Assembly: GCA_951406725.2 (NCBI GenBank)
Contig: OX597814.1
Coordinates: 192,758,001 to 192,822,000 of the forward strand
Origin: Octopus vulgaris
Lineage: Eukaryota
Direction of reading: 5' to 3'
Length of the DNA stretch: 64,000 nt
This document shows, piece by piece, positions 8,231 to 61,101 of the stretch (the stretch's first letter is position 1; each line of letters starts with the position of its first letter). Under the pieces are notes generated by a model. The model worked only from the letters and a program-made list of their open reading frames with translations. It ran no database searches and had not been told where the DNA came from. A program made the translations under genes and the position numbers.

Positions 8231-8403
8231 TAAAGTAGATGTAAATGTCCAACATGAAGTGTTTGTAAGGTTTTACAAGTTCATTTTGTTTCATTTATGG
8301 AAATGAATTTTTCTAAACTGTTGAAGTAATGCAGAATAATTTGCTACATTATTATATTTATTTTATCTTTTTCCCTTCTTTGTATACAGTTCATCAATTA
8401 AAA

Positions 8404-11400: not shown

Positions 11401-11469
11401 AGTAAATTTGTTACGAAACCTAAACAGAAAGGAGTAGGGAAAAAACAGAAAAGGAAAAATTGGAAGTAA
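8404..11469 (+). CDS. CEBPZ: CCAAT/enhancer-binding protein zeta (CBF/Mak21/Noc1 family), single coding exon, about 1021 aa
   Basis: Family motifs SGTLSDK..SPVHNL, LSDRFY..LY, RNPLYC..LFWEL..HFHPTVSLYA, GNPLQDYTLIRFLDRFVFKNPK; acidic then Lys-rich C-terminus. The ORF-track start (8329) runs through a polypyrimidine tract and CAG acceptor (8361-8389), so ATG 8404 is preferred. Confidence 0.93.
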   Translation: MPENLKIKKKATKMDKSLVKEESDEIVSDVQAFIKDLGLNTSVPSSMKSNVSAQPLPEDFNWGDMMPKKKGTVPPSASQTEKVSADTSKDAADSKGPSKKKSKNKYRPQTDEGVVELNEVSSEKVQDDEISSTTKSVKKKKTGEKSGKKEFIKLVVEAGTVWYDYLEKKNMDNKSRDNTNKTKRTSAKPLESEAAEIFQKDVENYKNLRAKREPSESSWFEKVIASGTLSDKEAAFQLYVTQSPVHNLDSLDNLIAMTQKKSRHVNIKAALVLKDLFIKYILPPDKTLMSFHEHKTDELSNSNRKKQLALWYFENELKKRFGVFAESLVRMLQDNVDACKEKVLAIISEILVYTSEQETILLSSLVNKIGDPSYKVASKTIYVLSKFLKLCPLKKLKVIDEVEMLLCRSGMKERGLYYAFCFLSNLRLKEGESKIAEKLVNVYLKFFQKYIQKGEMDNRMLSAILCGINFAFKIIHENREFIAEHTEILYKTVHLVNFNTSLQVMMLLYQIMESESLSDRFYMVLYRKMCDPALKSSNRHMHFLNLVFRAIKNDHSEARIKAFIKRLLQICLYQYPPFICGSLCLLSEVFREKPKLLNLDQNAENLMDSEDEECYKDVELDSDTESPQQAASDSELTNKDDNEEDSKSSGQVSSWVHRKNLKYVPTNIYYMPHHRNPLYCQAETTLFWELYLLSFHFHPTVSLYASTLLNNKFIDHEGNPLQDYTLIRFLDRFVFKNPKQIKEKSSEPKKNRYIPTGIKLIPANDRKYLEKANKIPVEEKYLYQYFLHKKAVTTDKGIFSEDEEVSDDEFDQILDQYERNADDKELTAFDFYGELGKQSAKKRSLEADFSSSEGSDDESDDEVDLGEDFMAEYKDFGGESDNENSNCEFDEENIKFSDDSDGEDDYEKFCKPKIKKLKRLKKESEQNPHDTSKFFVAAEEFSHMLEDNIVSNIGSQAVVNKDKSSAKQMKWEMAREQWMKKSDWKQKRQPKWKKKSGNKSKFVTKPKQKGVGKKQKRKNWK

Positions 11470-37924: not shown

Positions 37925-38427
37925 TAAGTCTATGTCTGGTCATACAGTAGCTTTAGAGTCTGACAAGCCATCCATGGGGCTAAGCCCTTTGTAGTTGCAA
38001 AACAATCGGTCATTCTGTAGTCGGAGGACACAGACTAAACCGTATATGAATACATTACTGCCGTTTGCTTTTAGAGTGTTCTTCTTTTTTCGGATATCTG
38101 ATAGATTGACAATATATGTATGTGTGTGCGTCTTTTTTTGTTTCACTGCTCGTTGTTTTTTTTTTTTTACACAATTGTAATCTAGCTGTTCAATAAAATG
38201 ATACTGATAGAATAAATCCTAGGCACAAAAGTATTTACTGGGATTGATGTCATTGACCAAACCCCTCAAGGCATTGCCCCAGTATGGCCGCAGTCCAGTG
38301 ACTGGCACAAGTAAAAAAAATTAAACTAACGAAATTCATATTAAATTTGTAAATTGACTTCTATTTCCTAGAATCATCACAATTTTGAATATAGACAGAC
38401 AGGCAGATAGAAAGATAGATAGATAGA

Positions 38428-39065
38428 TATGTTTCTTTGTTAGCCACACAGGGCTGCACACAGACGGGACAGATAACAAAGTAGAGCTTTTTTGGTGGGG
38501 AGAAAAAAAGTGGGGGTAGGTTTGCGATCAAAAGGGATTGTGAAAGGAAAAGAAAGAAAAAAAAGAACGATCAATAGGGATCGTGTATCACAGAAATGTC
38601 ATGATGTAAAGTGTAAAGGGGGAAGCAGATAAGGTTTATCCGTGGAAAGAAAAGCCTACGGAAAAGACCACGGTAACTTCGGTCAATAATGTTACATGTT
38701 ACCACATTTGTTTGCAAGTAGGTAACCCTCTGTTTTAAACTTTTTCGGGTTCATAGAATTATGCTCAAGGTGGTTTCGTCATTCATACGTGCCATCCTTG
38801 CTACATTCACCCATCTTTTTTGAAACATTCGCTAGACAAAACTTGTTTCTCTACTCTCACTTTCCTTTTCAAGTGATACTTGAAGAAGTTGATGAGAGAT
38901 TGACCAGAGAGGAAAGTGTTTGTTCACTAGATACATTCTTTCGCCATAGCCACAAGAATGATGAAAATAGCTCTTCCTTCCCGTTTGAAGGAGGCGTGAC
39001 AATATTGACGATAGACTCGGCTGATAAACCGACTCGTCCCACACGCGACAGCAGTCGTTCGACAT
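38428..39065 (-). mobile_element. L1/Tx1-like LINE 3' fragment lying in a (GATA)n tract upstream of DCTD (co-amplified)
   Basis: Minus strand VERLLSRVGRVGLSAESIV...LVAMAKECI...INFFKYHLKRKVRVEK; related to 56873-57440 and 35975-36140; GATA repeats on both sides. Confidence 0.65.
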
Positions 39066-39113
39066 AGATAGATAGATAGTGGGTGGACTAAATGTAAGGG
39101 ACATAAATGGCGC

Positions 39114-39210
39114 TATATAAGCAAGGGAGATAACTAGAAGCATATTGCGTTTCTAATAAGCTTGAGGACGTAAGCGGTAAATATTTCCCGCAAAATCTTA
39201 CGTATTTGAA
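39114..39210 (+). promoter_or_regulatory. DCTD core promoter: TATA (39114-39120), E2F site TTTCCCGC (39184-39191), CHR-like TTTGAA (39205-39210)
   Basis: Consensus matches within about 100 bp of the ATG, retained in copies 1, 2 and 5; consistent with an S-phase nucleotide-synthesis gene. Confidence 0.55.
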
Positions 39211-39215
39211 TCACT

Positions 39216-39812
39216 ATGGCCGAAGGTACTTCAGTTAACGGTGTTGCATCAAGCATGTCTAATAAGCGGCAAGGTTACCTTGAATGGGATGATTACTTCA
39301 TGTCAGTGGCTTTCCTCTCTGCTCAACGTAGCAAAGACCCAAGAACTCAGGTAGGAGCTTGTATTGTTAACGAAGATAGACGTATTGTTGGCATCGGATA
39401 TAACGGTATGCCTCGTGGTTGTAGTGACGATGATTTTCCTTGGTGCAATGAAGGTGTCACTGAGCTAGAAAACAAAAATTTCTACGTATGTCATGCTGAG
39501 CTTAATGCTATTCTCAATAAGAATTCTGCAGACGTTCGCAATTGCACTATATATGTTGGTTTGTTTCCTTGCAATGAATGTGCTAAAGTCATTATACAGT
39601 CTGGAATTAAAGAAGTCATATACTATTCGGATAAATATAAGGACCAAATTACCTCTAAAGCTTCTCGAATTATGTTGGATCGTGCTGAAATTAAATATCG
39701 CCAGTATCGACCTACAAACGGACAAATTGTTATAGATTTTACTTCATTAGAAGAAAAGAAAGACCGGATTATAAGTTCAGTTTTGTCCCCCATTTCTGAA
39801 CTTTCACTTTAG
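39216..39812 (+). CDS. DCTD: dCMP deaminase copy 1 (198 aa)
   Basis: [48 protein letters not shown] zinc-deaminase motifs; intronless. Confidence 0.97.
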
Positions 39813-40905
39813 TCAGATGCGAACATAAACACTTGGAATTCATTATATTGCCAACATTGCCTTTTCATAATGATATCCTGATATATTTTCTAGTTAAAAT
39901 TAATGGAACTGGTGAAGATTTTCTAATTTTTATATGAAATATTAACTGCTGTATTTTTAACGAAAATGTTTATTCCATTTTGTTTTCGTTTGTGTGTACA
40001 TAATATTTTAACTGCCTCTTTCTAAGAAAAGGAAACTATCCACATTTGTTCCAATACGCAGTAGCGTAGCTGGGGTGGGGTGTGTGTGCATTTTGGGCCG
40101 CACTTTTAAAGAGGCACCACCTTTGAGTCTGCTGTAGATAATGTTTTTTTTTTGTGATGGTCCGGGGGCAGCAAACAGAAAGGCATCCCCGGGCAGCACA
40201 GATTCTAGCTACGCTAGTGCCAATATTTCTTCTAACTCCATCTAATAAAAAGTTATCCGACTTCCACCCAGGATGTTGCGTCTTCTCACTAGCCTTCCTA
40301 CTACATACCCACTATTCACTGGAGCTGGTTGATGTCATACCTATTCTACTCAGGATCACCCGACTCCCTCTACCCTCTCGTCTCTTATTCAAGAAAGTAG
40401 CACGGATATTGTGTGTGGATGGAACCGCATGAATGCAAAACAGGACGAAACCCAGGTATCAGTGTGGAGGCGGGGCTCGTGGGGTCCAAGCTAAACCTGT
40501 CCCTCCACTCCATCTGTAATGTTTTCCAGTCTGTATTAGCATTCGATTTCTCCGATTTCATTATATGTTTGTAATTATGTGTAAATTTTTAATTTCATCC
40601 TTTGTGTAAAATCATTCGTGAATCTGACCCCAAATCAGGTTCTTTGTTCGCCCCTTGTGGGTACTAAAAAAACAGGTATGTATGTGTGTGTGTGTGTGTG
40701 TTCCCCCCACTCCTCTGCTTGACAACTATTTTTGGTGAGTTTACATCCCCATAACTTAGTGGTTCAGCAAAAGAGACTGAAGCAATATATACTCAGCTTA
40801 AGAAAAAAATTCCTGAGGCTAAAATTCTTCAAAGTGTATTCCATCATGGCTGCAGTCTAATGATTAAAACAAGTAAAAAAATAAGACATAAGTATGTACA
40901 CACAT

Positions 40906-41125
40906 ACGAGATAAGGTCAAAAATTATCTGCACTCTTGCCATAACAAATCTTTATTGTTGTCACACTGCCTTCAGTGCATGCATACTTATAGTTGGTACT
41001 ATTTTGGTGACGTGATCAAAGTTTGAGTCTGATTGGGCCATTTTTCTTTCTGGCATCACAGTGTAAGCATAGTCACTCCACTAGCAATGAGCACCAAAGA
41101 ATAACAAAGAGCAGTGATCTGAGAG
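40906..41125 (+). mobile_element. Mariner 5' end relic (also about 44042-44260 and 57687-57905)
   Basis: TA-CGAGATAAGGTCAAAAATTAT terminus; start of transposase STKE*QRAVI*. Confidence 0.55.
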
Positions 41126-42351
41126 ATGGTAATGGTATGGTCAGAGGACACAGACTAAACCGTGTATAAATACATTACTGCCGTTTGCTTTTAGAGTGTT
41201 CTTCTTTTTTCGGATATCTGATAGATTGACAATATATGTATGTGTGTGCGTCTTTTTTTGTTTCACTGCTCGTTGTTTTTTTTTACACAATTGTAGTCTA
41301 GATGTTCAATAAAATGATACTGATAGAATAAATCCTAGGCACAAAAGTATTTACTGGGATTGATGTCATTGACCAAACCTCTCAAGGCATTGCCCCAGTA
41401 TGGCCGCAGTCCAGTGACTGGCACAAGTAAAAAAAATTAAACTAACGAAATTCATATTAAATTTGTAAATTGACTTCTATTTCCTAGAATCATCACAATT
41501 TTGAATATAGACAGACAGGCAGATAGAAAGATAGATAGATAGATAGATATGTTTCTTTGTTAGCCACACAGGGCTGCACACAGACGGGACAGATAACAAA
41601 GTAGAGCTTTTTTGGTGGGGAGAAAAAAAGTGGGGGTAGGTTTGCGATCAAAAGGGATTGTGAAAGGGAAGGAAAGAAAAAAAAGGGGAAAAAAAGAACG
41701 ATCAATAGGGATCGTGTATCACAGAAATGTCATGATGTAAAGTGTAAAGGGGGAAGCATATAAGGTTTATCCATGGAAAGAAAAGCCTACGGAAAAGACC
41801 ACGGTAACTTCGGTCAATAATGTTACATGTTACCACATTTGTTTGCAAGTAGGTAACCCTCTGTTTTAAATTTTTTCGGGTTCATAGAATTATGCTCAAG
41901 GTGGTTTCGTCATTCATACGTGCCATCCTTGCTACATTCACCCATCTTTTTTGAAACATTCGCTAGACAAAACTTGTTTCTCTACTCTCACTTTCCTTTT
42001 CAAGTGATACTTGAAGAAGTTGATGAGAGATTGACCAGAGAGGAAAGTGTTTGTTCACTAGATACATTCTTTCGCCATAGCCACAAGAATGATGAAAATA
42101 GCTATTCCTTCCCGTTTGAAGGAGGCGTGACAATATTGACGATAGACTCGGCTGATAAACCGACTTGTCCCACACGCGACAGCAGTCGTTCGACATAGAT
42201 AGATAGATAGATAGTGGGTGGCACAAAATGTAAGGGACATAAATAGCGCTATATAAGCAAGGGAGATAACTAGAAGCATATTGCGTTTCTAATAAGCTTG
42301 AGGACGTAAGCGGTAAATATTTCCCGCAAAATCTTACGTATTTGAATCACT

Positions 42352-42948
42352 ATGGCCGAAGGTACTTCAGTTAACGGTGTTGCATCAAGCATGTCTAAAA
42401 AGCGGCAAGGTTACCTTGAATGGGATGATTACTTCATGTCAGTGGCTTTCCTCTCTGCTCAACGTAGCAAAGACCCAAGGACTCAGGTAGGAGCTTGTAT
42501 TGTTAACGAAGATCGACGTATTGTTGGCATCGGATATAACGGTATGCCACGTGGTTGTAGTGACGATGATTTTCCTTGGTGCAATGAAGGTGTCACTGAG
42601 CTAGAGAACAAAAATCTCTACGTATGTCATGCTGAGCTTAATGCTATTCTCAATAAGAATTCTGCAGACGTTCGCAATTGCACTATATATGTTGGTTTGT
42701 TTCCTTGCAATGAATGTGCTAAAGTTATTATACAGTCTGGAATTAAAGAAGTCATATACTATTCGGATAAATATAAGGACCAAATTACCTCTAAAGCTTC
42801 TCGAATTATGTTGGATCGTGCTGAAATAAAATATCGCCAGTATCGACCTACAAACGGACAAATTGTTATAGATTTTACTTCATTAGAAGAAAAGAAAGAC
42901 CGGATTATAAGTTCAGTTTTGTCCCCCATTTCTGAACTTTCACTTTAG
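42352..42948 (+). CDS. DCTD: dCMP deaminase copy 2 (198 aa)
   Basis: Intact HAE and PCxxC; private changes are synonymous. Confidence 0.97.
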
Positions 42949-45486
42949 TCAGATGCGAACATGAACACCTGGAATTCATTATATTGCCAACATTGCCTTT
43001 TCATAATGATATCCTGATATATTTTCTAGCTAAAATTAATGGAACTGGTGAAGATTTTCTAATTTTTATATGAAATATTAACTGCTGTATTTTTAACGAA
43101 AATGTTTATTCCATTTTGTTTTCGTTTGTGTGTACATAATATTTTAACTGCCTCTTTCTAAGAAAAGGAAACTATCCACGTTTGTTCCAATACGCAGTAG
43201 CGTAGCTGGGGTGGAGTGTGTGTGCATTTTGGGCCGCACTTTTAAAGAGGCACCACCTTTGAGTCTGCTGTAGATAATGTTTTTTTTTTGTGATGGTCCG
43301 GGGGCAGCAAACAGAAAGGCATCCCCGGGCAGCACAGATTCTAGCTACGCTAGTGCCAATATTTCTTCTAACTCCATCTAATAAAAAGTTATCCGACTTC
43401 CACCCAGGATGTTGCGTCTTCTCACTAGCCTTCCTACTACATACCCACTATTCACTGGAGCTGGTTGATGTCATACCTATTCTACTCAGGATCACCCGAC
43501 TCCCTCTACCCTCTCGTCTCTTATTCAAGAAAGTAGCACGGATATTGTGTGTGGATGGAAACCGCATGAATGCAAAACAGGACGAAACCCAGGTATCAGT
43601 GTGGAGGCGGGGCTCGTGGGGTCCAAGCTAAACCTGTCCCTCCACTCCATCTGTAATGTTTTCCAGTCTGTATTAGCATTCGATTTCTCTGATTTCATTA
43701 TATGTTTGTAATTATGTGTAAATTTTTAATTTCATCCTTTGTGTAAAATCATTCGTGAATCTGACCCCAAATCAGGTTCTTTGTTCGCCCCTTGTGGGTA
43801 CTAAAAAAACAGGTATGTATGTGTGTGTGTGTGTGTGTTCCCCCCACTCCTCTGCTTGACAACTATTTTTGGTGAGTTTACATCCCCATAACTTAGTGGT
43901 TCAGCAAAAGAGACTGAAGCAATATATACTCAGCTTAAGAAAAAAATTCCTGAGGCTAAAATTCTTCAAAGTGTATTCCATCATGGCTGCAGTCTAATGA
44001 TTAAAACAAGTAAAAAAATAAGACATAAGTATGTACACACATACGAGATAAGGTCAAAAATTATCTGCACTCTTGCCATAACAAATCTTTATTGTTGTCA
44101 CACTGCCTTCAGTGCATGCATACTTATAGTTGGTACTATTTTGGTGACGTGATCAAAGTTTGAGTCTGATTGGGCCATTTTTCTTTCTGGCATCACAGTG
44201 TAAGCATAGTCACTCCACTAGCAATGAGCACCAAAGAATAACAAAGAGCAGTGATCTGAGAGATGGTAATGGTATGGTCAGAGGACACAGACTAAACCGT
44301 GTATAAATACATTACTGCCGTTTGCTTTTAGAGTGTTCTTCTTTTTTCGGATATCTGATAGATTGACAATATATGTATGTGTGTGCGTCTTTTTTTGTTT
44401 CACTGCTCGTTGTTTTTTTTTACACAATTGTAGTCTAGATGTTCAATAAAATGATACTGATAGAATAAATCCTAGGCACAAAAGTATTTACTGGGATTGA
44501 TGTCATTGACCAAACCCCTCAAGGCATTGCCCCAGTATGGCCGCAGTCCAGTGACTGGCACAAGTAAAAAAATTAAACTAACGAAATTCATATTAAATTT
44601 GTAAATTGACTTCTATTTCCTAGAATCATCACAATTTTGAATATAGACAGACAGGCAGATAGAAAGATAGATAGATAGATAGATATGTTTCTTTGTTAGC
44701 CACACAGGGCTGCACACAGACGGGACAGATAACAAAGTAGAGCTTTTTTGGTGGGGAGAAAAAAAGTGGGGGTAGGTTTGCGATCAAAAGGGATTGTGAA
44801 AGGGAAGGAAAGAAAAAAAGGGGAAAAAAAGAACGATCAATAGGGATCGTGTATCACAGAAATGTCATGATGTAAAGTGTAAAGGGGGAAGCAGATAAGG
44901 TTTATCCGTGGAAAGAAAAGCCTACGGAAAAGACCACGGTAACTTCGGTCAATAATGTTACATGTTACCACATTTGTTTGCAAGTAGGTAACCCTCTGTT
45001 TTAAATTTTTTCGGGTTCATAGAATTATGCTCAAGGTGGTTTCGTCATTCATACGTGCCATCCTTGCTACATTCACCCATCTTTTTTGAACATTCGCTAG
45101 ACAAAACTTGCCTCTCTACTCTCACTTTCCTTTTCAAGTGATACTTGAAGAAGTTGATGAGAGATTGACCAGAGAGGAAAGTGTTTGTTCACTAGATACA
45201 TTCTTTCGCCATAGCCACAAGAATGATGAAAATAGCTCTTCCTTCCCGTTTAAAGGAAGGAGGCGTGACAATATTGACGATAGACTCGGCTGATAAACCG
45301 ACACGTCCCACATGTGACAGCAGTCGTTCGACATAGATAGATAGATAGTGGGTGGCACAAAATGTAAGGGACATAAATAGCGCTATATAAGCAAGGTAAA
45401 TAACTAGAAACACATTTGCGTTTCTAATAAGCTTGAGGACGTAAGTGGTAAATATTTTCGGCAAAGTCTTACGTATTTGATTCACT

Positions 45487-46056
45487 ATGGCAGAAGGTAC
45501 TTCTGTTAACGGTGTTGCATCAAGCATGTCTAATAAGCGGCAAGGTTACCTTGAATGGGATGATTACTTCATGTCAGTGGCTTTCCTCTCTGCTCAACGT
45601 AGCAAAGACCCAAGAACTCAGGTAGGAGCTTGTATTGTTAACGAAGATCGACGTATTGTTGGCGTCGGATATAACGGTATGCCTCGTGATTGTAGTGACG
45701 ATGATTTTCCTTGGTGCAATGAAGGTGTCACTGAGCTAGAAAACAAAAATCTCTACGTATGTCATGCTGAGCTTAATGCTATTCTCAATAAGAATTCTGC
45801 AGACGTTCGCAATTGCACTATATATGTTGGTTTGTTTCCTTGCAATGAATGTGCTAAAGTCATTATACAGTCTGGAATTAAAGAAGTCATATACTATTCG
45901 GATAAATATAAGGACAAAATTACCTCTAAAGCTTCTCGAATTATGTTGGATCATGCTAAAATAAAACATCGCCAGTATCGACCTACAAACGGACAAATTG
46001 TTATAGATTTTACTTCATTAGATGAAATGAAAGACCGGATTATAAGTTCAGTTTAG
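45487..46056 (+). CDS. DCTD: dCMP deaminase copy 3 (189 aa, L190*)
   Basis: Intact HAE/PCxxC; TTG->TAG removes the last 9 aa; 8 private missense changes. Confidence 0.9.
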
Positions 46057-46949
46057 TCCCTTCTTTCTTAACTTTCACTTTAGTCAGATGCGAACATAAA
46101 CACTTGGAATTCATTATATTGCCAACATTGCCTTTTCATAATGATATCCTGTTATATTTTCTAGCTAAAATTAATGGAACTGGTGAAGATTTTCTAATTT
46201 TTATATGAAATATTAACTGCTGTATTTTTAACGAAAATGTTTATTCCATTTTGTTTTCGTTTGTGTGTACATAATATTTTAACTGCCTCTTTCTAAGAAA
46301 ATGAAACTATCCACATTTGTTCCAATACGCAGTAGCGTAGCTGGGGGTATGTGTGCATTTTGGGCCGCACTTTTAAATTCTTAGATTATTCACATTGTAG
46401 TCTTTGTTTAACTTTCAAGTTTATTTGAATTTTATTCTTTATTTTAAAAATTATTCATTCAAATCTTGATAAGCATGTTATTGTTTGAATTTTTCAACCA
46501 TAGTTTGAAATTCCACTAATTCTCAGAATTTCCTTAAGAACATTTTATTCATAATCTATGTTGTACACACCCCCAAACTGTCAACGTCAGATGACCCAGA
46601 TAATGCAGAGGAAACAAGCAATGGAATTATTTCTATTCATATCCTAAAAGATACAGAATATCTCTGTCAGTGGTTCACAACTGGGATTTATATGGACCCT
46701 GAGGGGGACCATGTAAGGTTTTGTTGCTAAAATTTTCATCTACATTAAATTGGTTCTATTTGTACAATACACAAAATATTTTAGTTTTGTTTTAATACAA
46801 TTCTTCATAATATTATAAAAGTATAATAGGATTTCTCTAAATGACGAACGGCTATGGGTGATTCACCTGTGTAAAATGGGAATCAAAGGGGGCCATAGGT
46901 GAAAAGTGGTTGAGAACCACTTATCTATGTAATTAAAGTCTTAAAGTTT

Positions 46950-47235
46950 GGATCTTTTCAGTTTGACTGGCAGATTTTTAAAATAATTTCTTTGTAAGTA
47001 AATACTTTAAAACTTTGTATACTGGTAGAATGTGTTACATAAAACATCTTCTCATGGTTTTCTTGAGAAAATTCCGTAGTTTGTAACAACAAATAGCTTA
47101 CAAACTACAGAATTTTCTCAAGAAAGCCAAGAGAAAAAGATGTTTTATGTAACACACTACCAGTATATGAAGTTTGAAAGTGTTTAGTTACAAAGAAATT
47201 ATTTAAAATATCTACTGGTCAAAGTGAAAAGATCT
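46950..47235. mobile_element. Degenerate GGATC-TIR MITE with 8-bp TSD TAAAGTTT
   Basis: Same TIR family as 3269-3662; co-duplicated in units 3, 4 and 5. Confidence 0.65.
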
Positions 47236-48205
47236 TAAAGTTTTAACTGTGAGAGCAAATGAAATAATATCAGGTATCATATAAAAGTGATATATAACAA
47301 ATGTCTTATCCTATGAAATATAAAAATTAAAAAAATATTGTTTGGAATATGCAATCTTTATAATGTAGTCAGTTGTTCTGTTGATTTATATTTTTCTATC
47401 TTGAAATAAATATGTTATCAATTCTTAATGTTTTTCTAACTTTACTAATGAACTATCCTCAAAAATTTCATATTCTTACTTCTTCATAACATTTCATTGA
47501 AGATATTTTTCTGTGAAATTCACCTGTTGCAGCCAGAAGTCATATTGTATTTTCCAGCATATATATTTCTTTACTGCCCACAAAGGGCTAAACATAGAGG
47601 GGACAAACAAGGACAGACAAAGGGATTAAGTCGATTACACCGACCGCAGTGCGTAAACTGGTAGTTTATTTATCGACCCCGAAAGGATGAAAGGCAAAAT
47701 CGACCTTGGCGTAATTTGAACTCAGAACGTAACGACAGTCAAAATACAGCTAAGCATTTTGCCCAGTGCGCTAACGTTTCTGCCAGCTCGCTGCCTTTTC
47801 AATTTTTCCAGCCTATATGTTAACACAATATATTGTATAAACATGTAGTGTAAAACATTCAGACATCATCATTATCTTCCCATATCCTGTTATACATTCT
47901 TTCGCCATTGCCACAAGAATGATGAAAATAGCTCTTCCTTCCCATTTGAAGGAAGGAGGCGTGACAATATTGACGATAGACTCGGCTGATAAACCGACTC
48001 GTCCCACACGCGACAGCAGTCGTTCGACATAGATAGATAGATAGATAGAGATAGAAAGATAGATAGACAGTGGGTGGCACAAAATGTAAGGGACGTAAAT
48101 ACCGCTATAAGCAAGGGAGATAACTAGAAACATATTTGCGTTTCTCATAAGTCGAGGAAGTAATCTGTAAATATTTCCCGCAAAATCTTACGTATTTGAT
48201 TCACT

Positions 48206-48802
48206 ATGGCAGAAGGTACTTCTGTTAAGGGTGTTGCATCAAGCAGGTCTAATAAGCGGCAAGGTTACCTTGAATGGGATGATTACTTCATGTCAGTGGC
48301 TTTCCTCTCTGCTCAACGTAGCAAAGACCCAAGAACTCAGGTAGGAGCTTGTATTGTTAACGAAGATAGACGTATTGTTGGCATCGGATATAACGGTATG
48401 CCACGTGGTTGTAGTGACGATGATTTTCCTTGGTGCAATGAAGGTGTCACTGAGCTAGAAAACAAAAATCTCTACGTATGTCATGCTGGGCTTAATGCTA
48501 TTCTCAATAAGAATTCTGCAGACGTTCGCAATTGCACTTTGTATGCTGCTTTGTTTCCTTGCAATGAATGTGCTAAAGTCATTATACAGTCTGGAATTAA
48601 AGAAGTCATATACTATTCGGATAAATATAAGGACCAAATTACCTCTAAAGCTTCTCGAATTATGTTGGATCGTGCTGAAATAAAATATCGCCAGTATCAA
48701 CCTACAAACGGACAAATTGTTATAGATTTTACTTCATTAGAAGAAAAGAAAGACCGGATTATAAGTTCAGTTTTGTCCCCCATTTCTGAACTTTCACTTT
48801 AG
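48206..48802 (+). CDS. DCTD: dCMP deaminase copy 4 (198 aa), predicted catalytically inactive (E95G)
   Basis: Full ORF; CAT-GCT-GGG at 48482-48490 gives HAG instead of HAE; Zn ligands H93, C119 and C122 retained. Confidence 0.88.
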
Positions 48803-50905
48803 TCAGATGCGAACATAAACACTTGGAATTCATTATATTGCCAACATTGCCTTTTCATAATGATATCCTGTTATATTTTCTAGCTAAAATTAATGTAACT
48901 TGAGAAGATTTTCTAATTTTTATATGAAATATTAACTGCTGTATTTTTAACGAAAATGTTTATTCCATTTTGTTTTCGTTTGTGTGTACATAATATTTTA
49001 ACTGCCTCTTTCTAAGAAAATGAAACTATCCACATTTGCTCCAATACGCAGTAGCGTAGCTGGGGTGGGGTATGTGTGCATTTTGGGCCGCACTTTTAAA
49101 TTCTTAGATTGTTCACATTGTAGTCTTTGTTTAACTTTCAAGTTTATTTGAATTTTATTCTTTATTTTAAAAACTATTCATTCAAATCTTGATAAGCATG
49201 TTATTGTCTGAATTTTTCAACCATAGTTTGAAATTCCACTAATTCTCGGAATTTCCTTATGAATATTTTATTCATAATCTATGTTGTACACACCCTCAAA
49301 CTGTCAACGTCAGATGACCCAAATAAAGCAGACGAAACAAGCAATGGAATTATTTCTATTCATATCCTAAAAGATACAGAATATCTCTGTCAGTGGGTCA
49401 CAACTGGGATTTATATGGACCCTGAGGGGGTCCATGTAAGGTTTTGTTGCTAAAATTTTCATCTACATTAAATTGGTTCTATTTTTACAATACACAAAAT
49501 ATTTTAGTCTTGTTTTAATAGAATTCTTCATAATATTATAAAAGTATAATAGGATTTCTTTAAACGACGAACGGCTATGGGTGATTCACCTGTGTAAATT
49601 GGGAATCAAAGGGGGCCATAGGTGAAAAGTGGTTGAGAACCACTTATCTATGTAATTAAAGTCTTAAAGTTTGGATCTTTTCAGTTTGACCGGCAAATTT
49701 TTAAAATAATTTCTTTGTAAGTAAATACTTTAAAACTTTGTATACTGGTAGAATGTGTTACATAAAACATCTTCTCATGGTTTTCTTGAGAAAATTCTGT
49801 AGTTTGTAACAACAAATAGCTTACAAACTACAGAATTTTCTCAAGAAAGCCAAGAGAAAAAGATGTTTTATGTAACACACTACCAATATATGAAGTTTGA
49901 AAGTGTTCAGTTACAAAGAAATTATTTTAAAAATCTACTGGTCAAAGTTTTAACTGTGAGAGCAAATGAAATAATATCAGGTATCATATAAAAGTGATAT
50001 ATAACAAATGTCTAATACTATGAAATATAAAAATTAAAAAGTATTGTTTGGAATATGCAATCTTTATAATGTAGTCAGTTGTTCTGTTGATTTATATTTT
50101 TCTATCTTGAAATAAATATGTTATCAATTCTTAATGTTTTTCTAACTTTACTGATGAACTATCCTCAAAAATTTCATATTCTTACTTCTTCATAACATTT
50201 CATTGAAGATATTTTTCTGTGAAATTCACCTGTTGCAGCCAGAAGTCATATTGTATTTTCCAGCATATATATTTCTTTACTGCCCACAAGGGGCTAAACA
50301 TAGAGGGAACAAACAAGGACACACAAAGGGGTTAAGTCGATTACATCGACCCCAGTGCGTAACTGGTACTTAATTTATCGACCCCGAAAGGATGAAAGGC
50401 AAAGTCGACCGCGGCGGAATTTGAACTCAGAACGTAACGGCAGGCGAAATACCTATTTCTTTACTACCTACAAGGGGCTAAACACAGAGAGGACAAACAA
50501 GGACAGACAAACTGATTAAGTCGATTACATCGACCCCAGTGCGTGACTGGTACTTATTTAATCAACCCCCGAAAGGATGAAAAGCACAGTCGACCTTGGC
50601 GGAATTTGAACTCAGAATGTAACGACAGTCAAAATACAGCTAAGCATTTTGCCCAGTGCGCTAACGTTTCTGCCAGCTCGCTGCCTTTTCAATTTTTCCA
50701 GCATATATGTCAACACAATATATTGTATAAACATGTAGTGTAAAACATTCAGACATCATCATTATCTTCCCATATCCTGTTGTATTTCACATAAAAATTT
50801 TGGTCCTCCAAAGTCGCCTTTGTGTATAAATTAGCCTAACTATTTTGGTTTTAAAAATTTGATTTTTATGCTGGAAAATGCAGGTGAGTTGAAATTGAAA
50901 ATACA

Positions 50906-52027
50906 TTGACTTTGCTAAGGCTTTCAACTCTGTGCCACACAAAAGGCTTATGGTGAAACTCTCTGCAATGGGTGTGGGGGATGACCTTTTTAACTGGTTG
51001 AAATCCTTCATCCTCAGCCGAAAGGAGGTAGTCACAGTTCTAGGACAGCACTCTACACCATATGAGATGTCATCGGGTGTACCACAGGGATCTGTCCTTG
51101 GTCCCCTCCTGTTTGTGGCATACATTAATGACATAGATGCCAATTTAAAGAATGCCACAGTATTGAAATATACAGACGACATCAAGCTGTACCTTGAAAT
51201 CAAGAGGACTGATCCTGATGTCTACAACTCTTTCCTGTAATCAGACCTAGACACAATGCAGCAATGGATCACAGACTGGCAACTGAAACTGGCTGTGGAC
51301 AAGTGTACCACCATGCATTTTGGGAGAAAAAACCCTGCGTCCACATACTCCCTCCACAACACTGATATCAAGAAATCCTCTTGTGAGCGTGACCTAGGCA
51401 TCACTGTCAGCAGTGATTTGCGTTGGACAAAGCATATCTCTAAAATTGTCAAGAAGGCCGAGGGTGTCTTGGCATCACTCAGCAAGACTTTTGTTAGCCG
51501 CTCTCCAGCCATCTATTTAAAACTGTATACAGCTATGGTACGACCACACTTGGAATTCGCATCATCAGTTTGGAATCCCTATCTTGCTCAGAACATTGAC
51601 CTGGAATCTGTCCAGAGACGTGCAACCAAACGCATACCCTCCATCAGACACCTACCATATTCTGAGCGCATTGTTTCCCTGGGCATGGATTCACTGAAGC
51701 TCCGGCGTCTAGCGACGGACTTGGTAAACACCCACAAGGTTATCAACCACCTCACCAACAACAACACTGAACACCTTTTTGATCTCCATGTGTCTAACAC
51801 ACGTGGACATGCCTACAAAGTCAGAAAACAGCACAGCTTCCATGACTTTCGGAAACATTTTTTCACGCTCAGGGTTGCTGAAGCGTGGAATAAACTGCCT
51901 GCATCAGTTGTTGACTGCCATGACACTGCATCCTTTAAGGCCCTCATGCTTCCCGAAATCCGTCGAAACTACACCTGATTATATATACACTTTAGATGAG
52001 TTGTAGTGCACCTGAGCACTGTACACA

Positions 52028-52058
<31 letters not shown>
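50906..52058 (+). mobile_element. 5'-truncated CR1-group LINE (RT domain to (TTA)n tail)
   Basis: IDFAKAFNSVPH, SGVPQGSVLGPLLF, KYTDD, ERDLGI, VRPHLEFASSVWNP, RGHAYK; one in-frame stop at 51238-51240; absent from the paralogous site at about 56407. Confidence 0.92.
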
Positions 52059-52060
<2 letters not shown>

Positions 52061-53008
52061 TTGTTTTCATGACACTGACAAAGCTTGCAAAGGCTAAAGG
52101 TATTGTATAATTTCTTCTCTGATTAGGTCATCATTATCATCATCATTTAATGTCCCTTTACCATGCTAGCATGGGTTGGACGGTTCAACCGGGGTCTGGT
52201 AAGCCATGGAGGCTGCACCAGGCTCCAGTCTAATTTGGCAGTGTTTCTACAGCTGGATGCCCTTTGTAATGCCAACCACTACGTGAGTGTAGTGGGTGTT
52301 TTTTACGTGCCACCAGCACAGGAGCCAGAGCAGGCTGGCAAACGGCTACGATCAGTTGGTGCTTTTATGTGTCACCGATATGGACGCCAGTCAGGCGGCA
52401 CTGGCATCTGCCAAGTTCGGATGGTGCTTTTTATGTGTCACTGGCATGGGTTACCACATTTGTTTGCAAATAGGTAACCCTCTGTTTTAAATTTTTTCGG
52501 GTTCATAGAATTATGCTCAAGGTGTTTTCGTCATTCATACGTGCCATCCTTACTACATTCACCCATCTCTTTTGAAACATTCGCTAGACAAAACTTGTTT
52601 CTCTACTCACTTTCCTTTTCAAGTGATACTTGAAGAAGTTGATGAGAGATTGACCAGAGAGGAAAGTGTTTGTTCACTAGATACATTCTTTCGCCATAGC
52701 CACAAGAATGATGAAAATAGCTCTTCCTTCCCGTTTAAAGGAAGGAGGCGTGACAATATTGACGATATACTCGGCTGATAAACCGACTTGTCCCACACGC
52801 GACAGCAGTCGTTCGACATAGATAGATAGATAGTGGGTGGACTAAATGTAAGGGACATAAATGGCGCTATATAAGCAAGGGAGATAACTAGAAGCATATT
52901 GCGTTTCTAATAAGCTTGAGGACGTAAGCGGTAAATATTTCCCGCAAAATCTTACGTATTTGAATCACTACGGCAGAAGGTACTTCAGTTAACGGTGTTG
53001 CATCAAGC

Positions 53009-53566
53009 ATGTCTAAAAAGCGGCAAGGTTACCTTGAATGGGATGATTACTTCATGTCAGTGGCTTTCCTCTCTGCTCAACGTAGCAAAGACCCAAGAAC
53101 TCAGGTAGGAGCTTGTATTGTTAACGAAGATAGACGTATTGTTGGCATCGGATATAACGGTATGCCTCGTGGTTGTAGTGACGATGATTTTCCTTGGTGC
53201 AATGAAGGTGTCACTGAGCTAGAAAACAAAAATCTCTACGTATGTCATGCTGAGCTTAATGCTATTCTCAATAAGAATTCTGCAGACGTTCGCAATTGCA
53301 CTATATATGTTGGTTTGTTTCCTTGCAATGAATGTGCTAAAGTCATTATACAGTCTGGAATTAAAGAAGTCATATACTATTCGGATAAATATAAGGACCA
53401 AATTACCTCTAAAGCTTCTCGAATTATGTTGGATCGTGCTGAAATAAAATATCGCCAGTATCGACCTACAAACGGACAAATTGTTATAGATTTTACTTCA
53501 TTAGTAGAAAAGAAAGACCCGATTATAAGTTCAGTTTTGTCCCCCATTTCTGAACTTTCACTTTAG
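53009..53566 (+). CDS. DCTD: dCMP deaminase copy 5 (185 aa from the second Met; first ATG mutated to ACG at 52970-52972)
   Basis: Intact catalytic motifs; Met14 lies near the N-terminus typical of animal DCTDs. Confidence 0.9.
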
Positions 53567-54233
53567 TCAGATGCGAACATAAACACTTGGAATTCATTAT
53601 ATTGCCAACATTGCCTTTTCATAATGATATCCTGTTATATTTTCTAGCTAAAATTAATGGAACTGGTGAAGATTTTCTAATTTTTATATGAAATATTAAC
53701 TGCTGTATTTTTAACGAAAATTTTTATTCCAATTTGTTTTCGTTTGTGTGTACATAATATTTTAACTGCCTCTTTCTAAGAAAATGAAACTATCCACATT
53801 TGCTCCAATACGCAGTAGCGTAGCTGGGGTGGGGTGTGTGTGCATTTTGGGCCGCACTTTTAAAGAGGCACCACCTTTGAGTCTGCTGTAGATAATGTTT
53901 TTTTTTTTGTGATGGTCCGGGGGCAGCCAACAGAAAGGCATCCCCGGGCAGCACAGATTCTAGCTACGCTAGTGCCAATATTCCCTCTAACTCCATCTAA
54001 TAAAAAGTTATCCGACTTCCACCCAGGATGTTGCGTCATCTCACTAGCTTTTCTACTACATACCCACTATTCACTGGAGCTAGTTGATCTCATACCTATT
54101 CTACTCAGGATCACCCGACTCCCTCTACCCTCTCGTCTCTTATTCATTTGCATAAAACACTACACCTGATCCTTCTGAGACGTTAACTCTTGGAATATCT
54201 TTTCTGGAGTTGTTCAAGAACATCAGTTACATC

Positions 54234-54562
54234 GGTTCTACTAGCGAACTGTGGTCCCGGTGCGCGTACTCGCACACTCGCGCTAGCAAGTCGTAAGTAG
54301 TCGATCCTACAACGACTTTTTAACCCTAACCTTAACCCTAATTTTTTAACCCTAAACCCAACCCTAACTCTAACCTTAGTTTGTTTATAAAAATAATTTA
54401 TTTACTTAGTTTAAAAAATTATTTACTTTGTTCGAAAAATATTATTTAATTTTCTTTGATATGTATTCAGCCTTGAAATACAAACATATGCGCAAGTCGT
54501 TGTAGGATCGACTACTTACGACTAGCTAGCGCGCACCCGCACCACTGTTCGCTAGTAGTACC
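54234..54562. mobile_element. Merlin-like MITE carrying (TAACCC)n telomere-type repeats
   Basis: TIRs related to 6222-6429; 9-bp TSD AGTTACATC (54225-54233, 54563-54571); TAACCC array at about 54322-54378. Confidence 0.8.
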
Positions 54563-56872
54563 AGTTACATCAACTCAAACAGTTTCGGAGTCGCCTACGA
54601 AAGGTCACCAGTGCAGACCCTCACAGGTCAGACCAAACCATGAAAAAAAAATTAGTTTTATTAGGTTAATTATGTGTTAATTTCCTTAGTTTTCATTATG
54701 TTAGTCCCTGAAATAATTGTGCCTATTTTTAATGTTTTATTCTTGTTTTTTTCCCGTTTAATTCTTAGACTAAACATTGTAGTCTTTGTTTAATTTTCAA
54801 GTTTATTTGAATTTTATTCTTTATTTTAAAAACTATTCATTCAAATCTTGATAAGCATGTTATTGTCTGAATTTTTCAACCATAGTTTCAAATTCCACTA
54901 ATTCTCGGAATTTCCTCATGAATATTTTATTCATAATCTATGTTGTACACACCCCCAAACTGTCAACGTCAGATGACCCAAATAAAGCAGACGAAACAAG
55001 CAATGGAATTATTTCTATTCATATCCTAAAAGATACAGAATATCTCTGTCAGTGGTTCACAACTGGGATTTATATGGACCCTGAGGGGGTCCATGTAAGG
55101 TTTTGTTGCTAAAATTTTCATCTACATTAAATTGGTTCTATTTGTTCAACACACAAAATATTTTAGTTTTTTTTTAATAGAATTCTTCATAATATTATAA
55201 AAGTATAATAGGATTTCTTTAAACGACGAACGGCTTTGGGCGATTCACCTGTGTAAAATGGGAATCAAAGGGGTCAATAGGTGAAAAGTGGTTGAGAACC
55301 ACTGATCTATGTAATTAAAGTCTTAAAGTTTGGATCTTATCACTTTGACTGGCAGATTTTTAAAATAATTACTTTGTAACTAAATACTTTAAAACTTTGT
55401 ATACTGGTAGAATGTGTTACATAAAACATCTTCTCATGGTTTTCTTGAGAAAATTCTGTAGTTTGTAACAACAAATAGCTTACAAACTACAGAATTTTCT
55501 CAAGAAAGCCAAGAGAAAAAGATGTTTTATGTAACACACTACCAGTATATGAAGTTTGAAAGTGTTCAGTTACAAAGAAATTATTTTAAAAATCTGCTGG
55601 TCAAAGTGAAAAGATCTTAAAGTTTTAACTGTGAGAGCAAATGAAATAATATCAGGTATCTTATAAAAGTGATATATAACAAATGTCTAATACTATGAAA
55701 TATAAAAATTAAAAAGTATTGTTTGGAATATGCAATCTTTATAATGTAGTCAGTTGTTCTGTTGATTTATATTTTTCTATCTTGAAATAAATATGTTATC
55801 AATTCTTAATGTTTTTCTAACTTTACTGATGAACTATCCTCAAAAATTTCATATTCTTACTTCTTCATAACATTTCATTGAAGATATTTTTCTGTGAAAT
55901 TCACCCGTTGCAGCCAGAAGTCATATTGTATTTTCCAGCATATATATTTCTTTACTGCCCACAAGGGGCTAAACATAGACGGGACAAAGAAGGACAGACA
56001 AACAGATTAAGTCGATTATATCGACCCCAGTGAGTAACTAGTACTTATTTAATCAACCCCGAAAGGATGAAAAGCAATGTCGACCTCGGCGGAATTTGAT
56101 CTCAGAATGTAATGACTGTCAAAATACAGCTAAGCATTTTGCCCAGCGCGCTAACGTTTCTGCCAGCTCGCTGCCTTTTCAATTTTTCCAGCCTATATGT
56201 CAACACAATATATTGTATAAACATGTAGTGTAAAACATTCAGACATCATCATTATCTTCCCATATCCTGTTGCATTTCACATGGAAATTTTGGTCCTCCA
56301 AAGTCGTCTTTGTGTATAAATTGGCTTAACTTTTTTGGTTGTAAACTTTGGTTTTAAAAATTTGATTTTTATGCTGGAAAATGCAGGTGAGTTGAAATTG
56401 AAAATACACTCTTTTGTTTTCATGACACTGACAAAGCTTGCAAAGGCTAAAGGTATTGTATACTTTCTTCTCTGATTAGGTCATCATCATCATCATTTAA
56501 TGTCCGTTTTCCATGCTAGCATTGGTTGGACGGTTCGACCGGGGTCTGGTAAGTCATGGCTGTGTATTTAGAAGTTTGTTTCCCAATGATTTATATCTGG
56601 GTTCAGTCCCACTGTGTGGCACTTTGGACAGGTGTTTTCTACTATAGCCTCAGGCCGACCAAAAAATTTGTGAGTGTATTTGGTAGATGGAAACTGAAAG
56701 AAGCAGAGTGGTTGATGTCGGGAAGGGCATCCAGCTGTAATATCCTGCCAAATCAGGTACAGAAGTCTAGGGTAGTTTTTCTACCTGGCCAGCTCCTCTC
56801 AACCGTCCCACTCACGCATGCATGAAAGATGGATGTTAAACGGTGATGATGATGGTATGTATGTGTGTGTGT

Positions 56873-57440
56873 TTTATGCCGAACAACTGTTGTCACGTAC
56901 ACAAAGAGTACAGCTGTCGATTGAGTCTATTGTAAAGATTGACCTACCGGATTTCCCCTTGAAAGAAGGTAAGAATTGTTTTCTCGTTGTAGTTGCATTT
57001 GCGTGAGAGGTGATTTGGAAGACGAGGCTGAAAGGTATAGAGTCAGGCAATTTCATCTCTGGCCCTGGATTGGTGAATTACTTCATCTTTCACCTGAAAA
57101 GGAAAATAGGGCTAGACAGAAAATGCCTGACTGAGCCAGTGTTTGAAATTCGATGGAAGAAAGTAGCACGGATATTGCGTGTGGATGGAACCGCATGAAT
57201 GCAAAACAGGACGAAACCCAGGTATCAGTGGCGAGGCGGGGCTCGTGGGGTCCAAGCTAAACCTGTCCCTCCACTCCATCCGTAATGTCTTCCAGTCTGT
57301 CTTAGCATTCGATTTCTCCGATTTCATTATATGTTTGTAATTATGTGTAAATTTTTAATTTCATCCTTTGTGTAAAATCATTCGTGAATCAGGTTGTATT
57401 GTCCCTTCTTTGTTCGCCCCTTGTGGGTAATACAAAAACA
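56873..57440 (+). mobile_element. L1/Tx1-like LINE 3' fragment with 19-bp TSD, inserted in a SINE microsatellite
   Basis: YAEQLLSR..LVVVAFA*EVIWKTRLKG..FHLKRKIGLDRKCL..FEIRWKKVAR; TSD GGTATGTATGTGTGTGTGT (56854-56872, 57441-57459). Confidence 0.7.
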
Positions 57441-57444
57441 GGTA

Positions 57445-57475
<31 letters not shown>

Positions 57476-57919
57476 TCCCCCCACTCCCCCCCTTCACTGC
57501 TTGACAACTATTTTTGGTGAGTTTACATCCCCATAACTTAGTGGTTCAGCAAAAGAGACTGAAGCAATATATACTCAGCTTAAGAAAAAAATTCCTGAGG
57601 CTAAAATTCTTCAAAGTGTATTCCATCATGGCTGCAGTCTAATGATTAAAACAAGTAAAAAAATAAGACATAAGTATGTACACACATACGAGATAAGGTC
57701 AAAAATTATCTGCACTCTTGCCATAACAAATCTTTATTGTTGTCACACTGCCTTCAGTGCATGCATACTTATAGTTGGTACTATTTTGGTGACGTGATCA
57801 AAGTTTGAGTCTGATTAGGCCATTTTTCTTTCTGGCATCACAGTGTAAGCATAGTCACTCCACTAGCAATGAGCACCAAAGAATAACAAAGAGCAGTGAT
57901 CTGAGAGATGGTAATGGTG

Positions 57920-60699: not shown

Positions 60700-61050
60700 A
60701 GCAAAGAAAAGCATACATTCACTCTCTGCATGCAATTAGACTCGGAAAGTTCGTGAGGAACCCATTGACCCAATTTGCTGACTTTTCCGATAGCACACAG
60801 GTGTCAATGAATGGTTGAATGACCAAATCCAAGCTTCTCTGCTAGTTCCTCAACAGTTACGATGATATTTTGTTCCACCAGGGTTTTCAGGATGTCCTTG
60901 TCGAGTTCTACAGATCTTTCAGGATGAGGCTCGTCTTCTAGGCTGTAGTTTATGGCTCGGGATTTCTGGAACCACCATTGACACTGCCTTACGCTTATTG
61001 TCCAATCCCCATATACTGCATTAATATTTCTTGTACTTTGCACACATTTA
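60700..61050 (-). mobile_element. Mariner (Mos1/SETMAR-like) transposase HTH fragment
   Basis: RNINAVYGDWTISVRQCQWWFQK..LEDEPHPERS..TVEELAEKLGFGHSTIH. Confidence 0.8.
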
Positions 61051-61101
61051 TATTCTGTTATTCTTTTATGTTTCAGCCTTGAGGTTGTGGCCATGCTGGA
61101 T

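What the first reader, a model, noticed from the sequence alone, without database searches (positions are those of the whole stretch)
38024..57918. Five-copy tandem expansion of intronless dCMP deaminase with divergent fates
Seen: five near-identical DCTD ORFs, none frameshifted, each with distinct protein or promoter changes. Established: DCTD is normally a single-copy, intron-containing, hexameric, dCTP-activated and dTTP-inhibited enzyme that sets the dCTP/dTTP balance and also deaminates 5-methyl-dCMP. Inference: a lineage-specific dosage amplification now diversifying into a multi-subunit system (long/short, truncated and dead subunits) for nucleotide-pool control, modified-cytidine disposal or antiviral dCTP depletion. 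This is the best candidate for an undescribed system in the window.
Basis: partly seen in the sequence, partly recalled or inferred. Interest (0 to 1): 0.82.

Follow-up and report, generated by a model that had tools for sequence, protein, structure and literature searches.

The report
Octopus tandem dCMP deaminase gene array
This octopus genome carries five head-to-tail, intron-free copies of the gene for dCMP deaminase (an enzyme that balances DNA building blocks), one of them lacking its catalytic residue, and they are likely an ordinary drifting duplicate array rather than a new multi-subunit system.

Summary
Five single-exon dCMP deaminase (DCTD) copies, 96-99% identical, lie in tandem in an Octopus genome, and the tandem junctions recur in public runs from several studies, so this is no assembly artefact. 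The cluster is not new. O. sinensis has six annotated copies on one chromosome, and a 2020 preprint names that cluster as hemizygous. The 'divergent fates' are mostly trivial. The long, short and truncated forms differ only in unconserved tails. Copies 1, 2 and 5 keep all 73 highly conserved positions. Coding changes (22 replacement, 8 silent) do not differ from neutral, and the lack of frameshifts is expected at this divergence. Copy 4 has lost the catalytic glutamate (HAE to HAG), and so has its O. sinensis orthologue, which has decayed further. Best reading: a birth-and-death array with gene conversion, in which the intact copies likely do the ordinary job. The one open lead is that HAG is also the dead-domain motif of vertebrate CDADC1 and of crab double-domain DCTDs, so copy 4 could be a free regulatory pseudo-subunit (about 10%). 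Nothing supports antiviral or modified-base roles.

The parts
39216..39812 (+). DCTD copy 1, 198 aa, HAE/PCNEC/GYNG intact; L89F at a variable site
   Evidence: (PF00383 94.9 bits)
42352..42948 (+). DCTD copy 2, 198 aa, intact; private changes all silent (3); shares alleles with each other copy (mosaic)
45487..46056 (+). DCTD copy 3, 189 aa (L190stop in the unconserved tail), HAE intact, G68D at a site that is G in 106 of 112 homologues; lost the TTTCCCGC motif and the first AATAAA
48206..48802 (+). DCTD copy 4, 198 aa, catalytic E95G (HAE to HAG), V114A, M14R; orthologous to O. sinensis XP_029642106.2 (P0003)
   Evidence: support 100/98
52970..53566 (+). DCTD copy 5: first ATG is ACG, ORF from the second ATG at 53009 (185 aa), core intact; closest to O. 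sinensis P0124
38020..41139 (+). repeat unit 1 (blocks A B G H J)
41140..44276 (+). repeat unit 2 (A B G H J); J|A junction at 41139/41140
44277..47891 (+). repeat unit 3 (A B G K); G|K deletion junction at 46377 with 5 shared bases
47892..52449 (+). repeat unit 4 (G K, LINE insertion, start of y, a dispersed repeat); K|G junction at 47892
52450..57918 (+). repeat unit 5 (B G H x K y J), holding the longest and likely ancestral downstream arrangement
   Evidence: ancestral state inferred from block order
50906..52058 (+). 5'-truncated LINE fragment (reverse transcriptase ORF pieces, (TTA)n tail) inserted in unit 4; empty site at about 56408 in unit 5
   Evidence: (RVT_1, E 7e-11)
41686..42195 (+). 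very high-copy repeat with a (TAGA)n end just upstream of the copy 2 promoter (equivalents upstream of the other copies, cut short in copies 4 and 5)
   Evidence: depth and loose ends; alignment
42250..42327 (+). TATA-like TATATAAG (42250; also 39114, 45384, 52868; shortened in copy 4) and TTTCCCGC (42320; also 39184, 48174, 52938; lost in copy 3). The label 'E2F site' is recalled and the function untested
43380..43385 (+). AATAAA about 430 nt after the stop (also 40244, 53999); removed from copies 3 and 4 by the G|K deletion

Best explanation
This is a tandem array of five single-exon dCMP deaminase genes that likely arose by repeated local duplication and deletion of the octopus's likely only DCTD locus and is likely turning over by birth-and-death with gene conversion. 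Copies 1, 2 and 5 are predicted to make the ordinary zinc-dependent, dCTP-activated enzyme that turns dCMP into dUMP; copy 3 is predicted active but drifting; copy 4 lacks the catalytic glutamate and is likely a dying duplicate. Shown: the copies, junctions, substitutions, the shared copy types in O. sinensis, and the mosaic allele pattern. Inferred: order of events, relaxed selection, enzyme activity, and the absence of another DCTD locus.
For: Block map with distinct junctions and a LINE insertion. Junctions seen in public runs of several studies. Six O. sinensis proteins on one chromosome, with counterparts of copies 3, 4 and 5. The O. sinensis cluster is reported as a hemizygous tandem cluster (10.1101/2020.09.15.298695, section 15 read). 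22 replacement to 8 silent changes, not different from neutral. Substitution density is the same in the CDS and the 3' flank (0.051 and 0.049 per column). 36 of 78 pairs of informative sites are incompatible with one tree. The O. sinensis orthologue of copy 4 departs from 7 of 73 highly conserved columns, 5 more than copy 4. Copies 1, 2 and 5 depart from none.
Against: Only 3 of 19 amino-acid changes fall in the 39% of columns that are highly conserved (P=0.03), so selection on the core has not been absent. Private changes in copies 3-5 are 20 replacement to 0 silent (p 0.004-0.012, post hoc), which could hint at positive selection; but shared silent sites were left out of that tally and K144, K158 and P184 match O. 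bimaculoides, so they are probably ancestral. Counting all indels, slippage included, zero frameshifts has P=0.03. Copy 4 has kept an open frame here since the split from O. sinensis, and a copy-4-like contig is present in a run guessed to be RNA. Part of the decay of the O. sinensis orthologue could be assembly error.
Confidence: 0.68

Rival explanations
1. Dosage amplification under selection: three or four active copies are kept because more dCMP deaminase helps dTTP supply in a fast-growing lineage, and copy 4 is incidental debris.
For: At least three intact copies in this genome, and five of six O. sinensis proteins keep HAE. Changes avoid conserved columns (P=0.03). Contigs with 5' ends like copy 1, copy 3 and copy 4 appear in three different runs guessed to be RNA.
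Against: Copy number appears to vary within one O. sinensis individual. O. bimaculoides and Argonauta have one copy on record. Dctd knock-out mice were viable and fertile in one study (PMC12088426, passage), so dosage is not obviously limiting in animals.
Confidence: 0.14
2. Copy 4 is a retained pseudo-enzyme subunit: it would join active copies in mixed hexamers and tune allosteric response or substrate choice, as the dead HAG domain does within CDADC1.
For: E95G gives HAG, the motif of the inactive CDADC1 N-domain (alignment). 59 of the 120 best double-domain DCTDs carry one domain missing a catalytic or zinc residue, four crab proteins with exactly HAE plus HAG. E95G is shared with O. sinensis. 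The zinc ligands and GYNG motif are intact, and X14 holds a copy-4-like contig (27 substitutions and 22 gap letters seen, 28 and 26 expected).
Against: GAG to GGG is one transition, so the match is cheap. All 8 private coding changes in copy 4 are replacements. The O. sinensis orthologue shows five more hits at conserved sites and an earlier stop. An intact frame is expected by chance for 8 substitutions (P 0.37-0.72). No Octopus fused protein is among the 120 best of 614 longer hits.
Confidence: 0.1
3. Some copies have taken on a new substrate role (modified cytidine disposal or antiviral dCTP depletion).
For: DCTD acts on 5-methyl- and 5-hydroxymethyl-dCMP, and two viral DCTDs act on triphosphates (PMC12088426, passages). 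Copies 3-5 have an excess of private replacement changes (post hoc).
Against: Active copies keep the conserved core of animal DCTD. Copy 3's changes are mostly to residues seen in homologues or to ancestral ones. Cellular DCTDs do not deaminate dCTP. No expression or infection data link the locus to defence.
Confidence: 0.04
4. The array is an assembly artefact (haplotypes or errors written out in tandem).
For: Units 1 and 2 are over 99% alike in blocks H, J and B, so one of them could be an unmerged haplotype.
Against: Junctions J|A, H|J, H|x and K|G are seen in public runs, and the copy 3 promoter haplotype matches exactly in count (12 substitutions, 1 gap) in DNA run X2. O. sinensis has matching copy types.
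Confidence: 0.02

Closest known systems
Eukaryotic dCMP deaminase DCTD (EC 3.5.4.12; human PDB 2W4L; Pfam PF00383)
   Same: Single domain, HAE and PCNEC zinc motifs, GYNG allosteric motif; E 1e-68 over residues 15-181.
   Different: Five tandem copies with an uninterrupted CDS (mouse Dctd has at least four exons, PMC12088426 passage); one copy has HAG.
Octopus sinensis DCTD cluster (XP_029642093.1, XP_029638125.1, XP_029637800.1, XP_029639851.1, XP_029642106.2, XP_036365194.1)
   Same: Same locus type with counterparts of copies 3, 4 and 5; named as a hemizygous tandem cluster in 10.1101/2020.09.15.298695.
   Different: Six proteins on record, including a divergent 219-aa copy with no counterpart in this window and a copy mixing features of copies 1 and 3. 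The paper gives one clause and no analysis of copies.
Vertebrate CDADC1 (dead HAG N-domain plus active C-domain, (d)CTP deaminase)
   Same: The same HAE-to-HAG loss; a dead copy lies just upstream of an active one here (copy 4, then copy 5).
   Different: CDADC1 is one chain and its dead site is also blocked by other residues. Here the genes are separate, 96% identical, and no fused Octopus protein is on record.
Double-domain DCTDs of crabs, thrips and diatoms (P0135, P0139, P0151, P0155, P0205 and others)
   Same: DCTD duplication with one domain losing catalytic residues has recurred; crab proteins read HAE plus HAG.
   Different: They are fused and at most 67% identical to the octopus protein; independent origins are inferred, not tested with a tree.
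Birth-and-death tandem gene families with gene conversion (concept recalled)
   Same: Young near-identical copies, mosaic alleles, a dead member, copy-number variation.
   Different: The member is a housekeeping nucleotide enzyme rather than an immune or sensory gene.

Membership tests
DCTD (dCMP deaminase) | HxE and PCxxC zinc/catalytic motifs | tested here: met
   Copies 1, 2, 3, 5: H93, E95, C119, C122; each invariant in 112 of 112 non-octopod homologues
DCTD (dCMP deaminase), copy 4 as an active enzyme | catalytic glutamate of HxE | tested here: not met
   E95G; the glutamate is described as essential (PMC12088426 and PMC12386326, passages)
DCTD (dCMP deaminase) | allosteric G(Y/W)N(A/G) motif | tested here: met
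   GYNG at 61-64 in all five copies; motif from PMC12088426
DCTD (dCMP deaminase) | single ~20 kDa domain, PF00383 above cut-off, closest solved structure is DCTD | tested here: met
   PF00383 89-95 bits against cut-off 25 for the three copies scanned (1, 3, 4); 2W4L best hit for copies 2 and 4
DCTD (dCMP deaminase) | homohexamer, dCTP activation, dTTP inhibition, dCMP substrate | not testable with these tools
   needs enzyme assay
Retrogene | intronless CDS where homologues have introns | tested here: met
   CDS is one ORF colinear with human DCTD; mouse gene is multi-exon. Intron status in other molluscs was not testable
Retrogene | intron-containing parent elsewhere in the genome | tested here: inconclusive
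   No other named Octopus DCTD among the 120 best of 7923 hits; all six O. sinensis proteins lie on a contig of one length; no genome was held to search
Retrogene | poly(A) remnant downstream | tested here: not met
   No run of 8 or more A within 1 kb after any stop; expected to be lost if the event is old
CDADC1-like two-domain deaminase | dead HAG domain | tested here: met
   copy 4 HAG aligns to the CDADC1 N-domain HAG
CDADC1-like two-domain deaminase | dead and active domains in one chain | tested here: not met
   separate ORFs about 4.2 kb apart; no hit above 67% identity among the 120 best of 614 longer proteins; no acceptor-like site found at copy 5's 5' end by a simple pattern
CDADC1-like two-domain deaminase | (d)CTP deaminase activity | not testable with these tools
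   needs assay
Birth-and-death tandem family | copy types shared between species, with dead members | tested here: met
   copy 4 with P0003 (100/98), copy 5 with P0124 (87/68, weak); copy 3 nearest P0001
Birth-and-death tandem family | copy-number variation and sequence exchange | tested here: inconclusive
   36 of 78 site pairs incompatible; hemizygosity taken from a preprint on O. sinensis; contig depth is not a copy-number measure

The most novel reading that the evidence does not exclude
Copy 4 is a free-standing HAG pseudo-enzyme subunit, kept since before the split from O. sinensis, that co-assembles with active DCTD copies into mixed hexamers: a young, unfused counterpart of the dead-plus-live domain pairing fixed in vertebrate CDADC1 and seen in crab and diatom double-domain DCTDs, caught at the first step of that path.
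Probability: 0.1. Interest if true: 0.65.

Novelty: new member of a known kind. Interest (0 to 1): 0.25.

Why it matters
As an ordinary array it matters little: a worked example of a housekeeping gene caught in birth-and-death turnover, and a warning that read mapping and annotation at this octopus locus will be confused by five 96-99% identical copies. If copy 4 proved to be a working pseudo-subunit, it would give a testable, few-million-year-old model of how dead-plus-live deaminase pairs such as CDADC1 begin, with only a handful of substitutions to dissect. The side finding that about half of the double-domain DCTDs sampled carry one dead domain may be the better lead.

Tried and rejected
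Whole-genome search for a parent gene: no genome is held for this window. Sequencing runs: no RNA holder listed; the RNA labels are guesses, and contigs cannot give expression level or copy number. Gene-body depth above spacer depth in X1, X9 and X14 and the roughly stepped depths in X2 (25-33, 52, 71-79, 105) are therefore noted but not used as proof. The rows for E95G, the G|K junction and most joints were among those not shown (84 letter rows, 448 loose ends and 55 joints hidden), so expression of the dead allele and a copy 4-copy 5 read-through are open. Positive selection on copies 3-5: the 20:0 private tally was rejected as post hoc and biased by shared silent sites and ancestral states. 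'No frameshift' as evidence of selection: rejected at P=0.30. A sigma-70 promoter scan does not apply to an animal and was ignored. TATATAAG/TATAAAAG is common in the window (29 matches) and TTTSSCGC is barely above chance once the four duplicated matches are counted as one, so both motifs are labels only. No structure or complex was predicted: near-identical copies of a solved hexamer would pass by likeness. Literature searches: octopus + dCMP deaminase (2 irrelevant hits), octopus + deoxycytidylate deaminase (2 hits, 1 relevant), cephalopod + DCTD (0), octopus + intronless + retrogene (5 listings, none on this gene by title or abstract start), dCMP deaminase + gene duplication + invertebrate (2 irrelevant), cephalopod + intron loss + single-exon (0); a search for the journal version of the preprint listed 8 of 21 papers, none of them that version. 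Earlier scan notes: none.
Full report
What is there. The window is animal DNA rich in dispersed repeats. Five ORFs for dCMP deaminase lie on the + strand at 39216, 42352, 45487, 48206 and 53009. Copy 5's upstream ATG reads ACG at 52970, and tblastn finds no further fragment in the window. Copies 1, 3 and 4 were scanned and match PF00383 at 89-95 bits; copies 2 and 4 have human DCTD (2W4L) as their best solved relative. The nearest named proteins are from Octopus sinensis (86-99% identity), O. bimaculoides (90%) and Argonauta hians (73%). The window is therefore from an Octopus close to O. sinensis; I did not resolve it further.

Anatomy. Self-comparison and the sequence give the block order A B G H J | A B G H J | A B G K | G K LINE y' repeat | B G H x K y J, where G holds promoter, CDS and about 290 nt of 3' flank. 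Unit 5 has the longest downstream arrangement. Units 1-2 lack x-K-y, units 3-4 lack H-x, unit 4 begins at a K|G junction and holds a truncated LINE absent from the matching site in unit 5. I infer several rounds of local duplication and deletion with different breakpoints. The upstream block A/B ends in a very high-copy repeat: DNA word depth there is 3e5-7.5e5 against about 100 over the CDS. Between it and the ATG lie a TATA-like box and TTTCCCGC ('E2F site' is my recalled label). Copy 3 has lost the latter, and copies 3 and 4 have lost the first downstream AATAAA.

Is it real? One repeat unit (40910-43810) was laid against four of the 24 runs listed. The J|A tandem junction is bridged in 4 of 4 runs (X2 with only 30-33 letters on one side). 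H|J is bridged in X1 and X14. The H|x end of copy 5 appears as a loose end in X9 and X14, and the K|G junction of copy 4 in X14. A DNA contig in X2 carries 12 substitutions and 1 gap over 42233-42429, the same count as copy 3. Another X2 contig has 17 substitutions over 42718-42891 where no window copy has more than 6, so a sixth, more divergent copy may exist in that organism, as in O. sinensis (P0005). O. sinensis has six annotated DCTD proteins on a contig of one length, against one each on record for O. bimaculoides and Argonauta. The multi-copy state is real. Whether units 1 and 2 (over 99% alike in B, H, J) are both present in all individuals is open.

Is it new? No. The bioRxiv preprint 10.1101/2020.09.15.298695 (passages and section 15 read) lists 'Deoxycytidylate deaminase in O. 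sinensis' among hemizygous genes in clusters of tandem duplicates. It gives no analysis of the copies, and its supplement, which may say which copy is hemizygous, was not seen. My other searches found nothing on the copies or on the dead allele; most subscription journals are not covered.

The fates of the copies. Against 112 non-octopod single-domain homologues (the 120 listed, less 5 octopod and 3 double-domain proteins), 73 columns are at least 90% conserved. Copies 1, 2 and 5 depart from none, copy 3 from one (G68D), copy 4 from two (E95G, V114A). Residues 1-16 and beyond about 179 are unconserved, and human DCTD aligns only to 15-181. Copy 5's 13-residue shorter start and copy 3's 9-residue shorter end therefore touch nothing conserved; public models of copies 1-3 also start at the second ATG. 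E95 is E in 112 of 112 homologues and is described as essential (PMC12088426 and PMC12386326, passages), so copy 4 is predicted dead. Its O. sinensis orthologue (P0003; support 100/98) shares N8K, M14R, E95G, V114A, G115A and R165Q, and departs at five more conserved columns with an earlier stop, some of which could be assembly error. The array and the dead allele thus predate the split from O. sinensis. For scale, PMC10700109 (passages) gives 2.5 million years for O. vulgaris-O. sinensis and 34 for the split from O. bimaculoides.

Selection. Over codons 1-190 there are 22 replacement and 8 silent changes, omega about 0.75-0.95, p 0.5-0.84 against neutral. Substitution density is 0.051 per column in the CDS and 0.049 in the 3' flank. 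Flanking blocks show 169 substitutions and 21 indels, 7 of them outside slippage sites; zero indels for 29 CDS substitutions has P=0.30 (0.03 if slippage indels are counted). Results against a purely neutral reading: only 3 of 19 amino-acid changes hit conserved columns (P=0.03), copies 1-2 have 4 silent to 1 replacement private change, and copies 3-5 have 20 replacement to 0 silent (post hoc p 0.004-0.012). The last tally leaves out four shared silent sites, and three of its changes match O. bimaculoides, so I do not take it as positive selection. Thirteen informative sites give seven different splits and 36 of 78 incompatible pairs, which I read as gene conversion or unequal exchange.

Expression. 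No holder is on record as RNA. In three runs guessed to be RNA, contigs have 5' ends like copy 1 (X1), copy 3 (X9) and copy 4 (X14; 27 substitutions and 22 gap letters against 28 and 26 expected). These contigs are collapsed mosaics and the spacer is also covered, so they show presence only.

Intronless state. No second named Octopus DCTD appears among the 120 best hits, so the array is likely the only locus and the intron loss likely older than the expansion. There is no poly(A) remnant. The nearby CBF/Mak21 gene (8329-11469) also has a single coding exon behind a splice-acceptor-like site, so this state is not unique here. Retrogene replacement is a guess that I could not test without genomes.

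The one live lead. HAG is the motif of the inactive N-domain of vertebrate CDADC1 (PMC12088426, section 8 read), and dead copy 4 lies just upstream of intact copy 5. A search of longer proteins found no Octopus fusion among the 120 best of 614 hits (maximum identity 67%). It did show that double-domain DCTDs are common, and that 59 of those 120 carry one domain lacking a catalytic or zinc residue, four crab proteins with HAE plus HAG. Dead-plus-live pairing is thus a recurring outcome in this family, which keeps a pseudo-subunit role for copy 4 open. But the change is a single transition, all eight private coding changes in copy 4 are replacements, and the orthologue looks decayed. I put it at 10%.

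Verdict. Observation confirmed; interpretation partly supported. Most likely an ordinary birth-and-death tandem array of a housekeeping enzyme, already noted in O. sinensis (0.68). Interest 0.25.

Noticed in passing
proteins P0129-P0248: Double-domain DCTDs occur in decapod crustaceans, some insects, sacoglossan slugs and diatoms. 59 of the 120 best carry one domain lacking a catalytic or zinc residue; crabs (Scylla, Portunus, Eriocheir) have HAE plus HAG, and many diatom-like and unnamed ones a dead first domain. Possible independent CDADC1-like enzymes; not searched in the literature.
   Followed up: partly
window 8329-11469 (+): CBF/Mak21-family gene (CEBPZ/Noc1-like, label recalled) with the whole CDS in one exon; a pyrimidine tract and CAG at about 8390 precede the likely ATG at 8405, suggesting an intron only in the 5' UTR.
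   Followed up: partly
window 19751-25351 (-): Single 1866-aa ORF with no Pfam hit; the Atlas feature search points to molluscan NHL-repeat proteins (score 0.93, NHL on 47% of members, low recognition value). Possibly several beta-propellers in one exon.
   Followed up: partly
run X2, contig over window 42718-42891: A haplotype with 17 substitutions in 174 nt that matches no window copy; may be a counterpart of the divergent O. sinensis copy P0005, which also has a duplicated C-terminal tail.
   Followed up: no
window 41686-42195 and equivalents: About 500 bp repeat with a (TAGA)n end at several thousand times the depth of the CDS in DNA run X2, ending about 55 nt before the TATA-like box.
   Followed up: no
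window 54234-54562, 55332-55616, 46951-47234, 49674-49948: Inverted-repeat (MITE-like) elements in blocks x and K; the one in x has short TAACCC-like repeats.
   Followed up: no
window 60804-61094 (-): Mariner/Mos1-type transposase HTH fragment (PF17906).
   Followed up: no
copies 4 and 5, codons 1 and 14: Copy 4 has lost the second ATG (M14R) and copy 5 the first (ACG), so each has one start left; the affected stretch is unconserved.
   Followed up: yes
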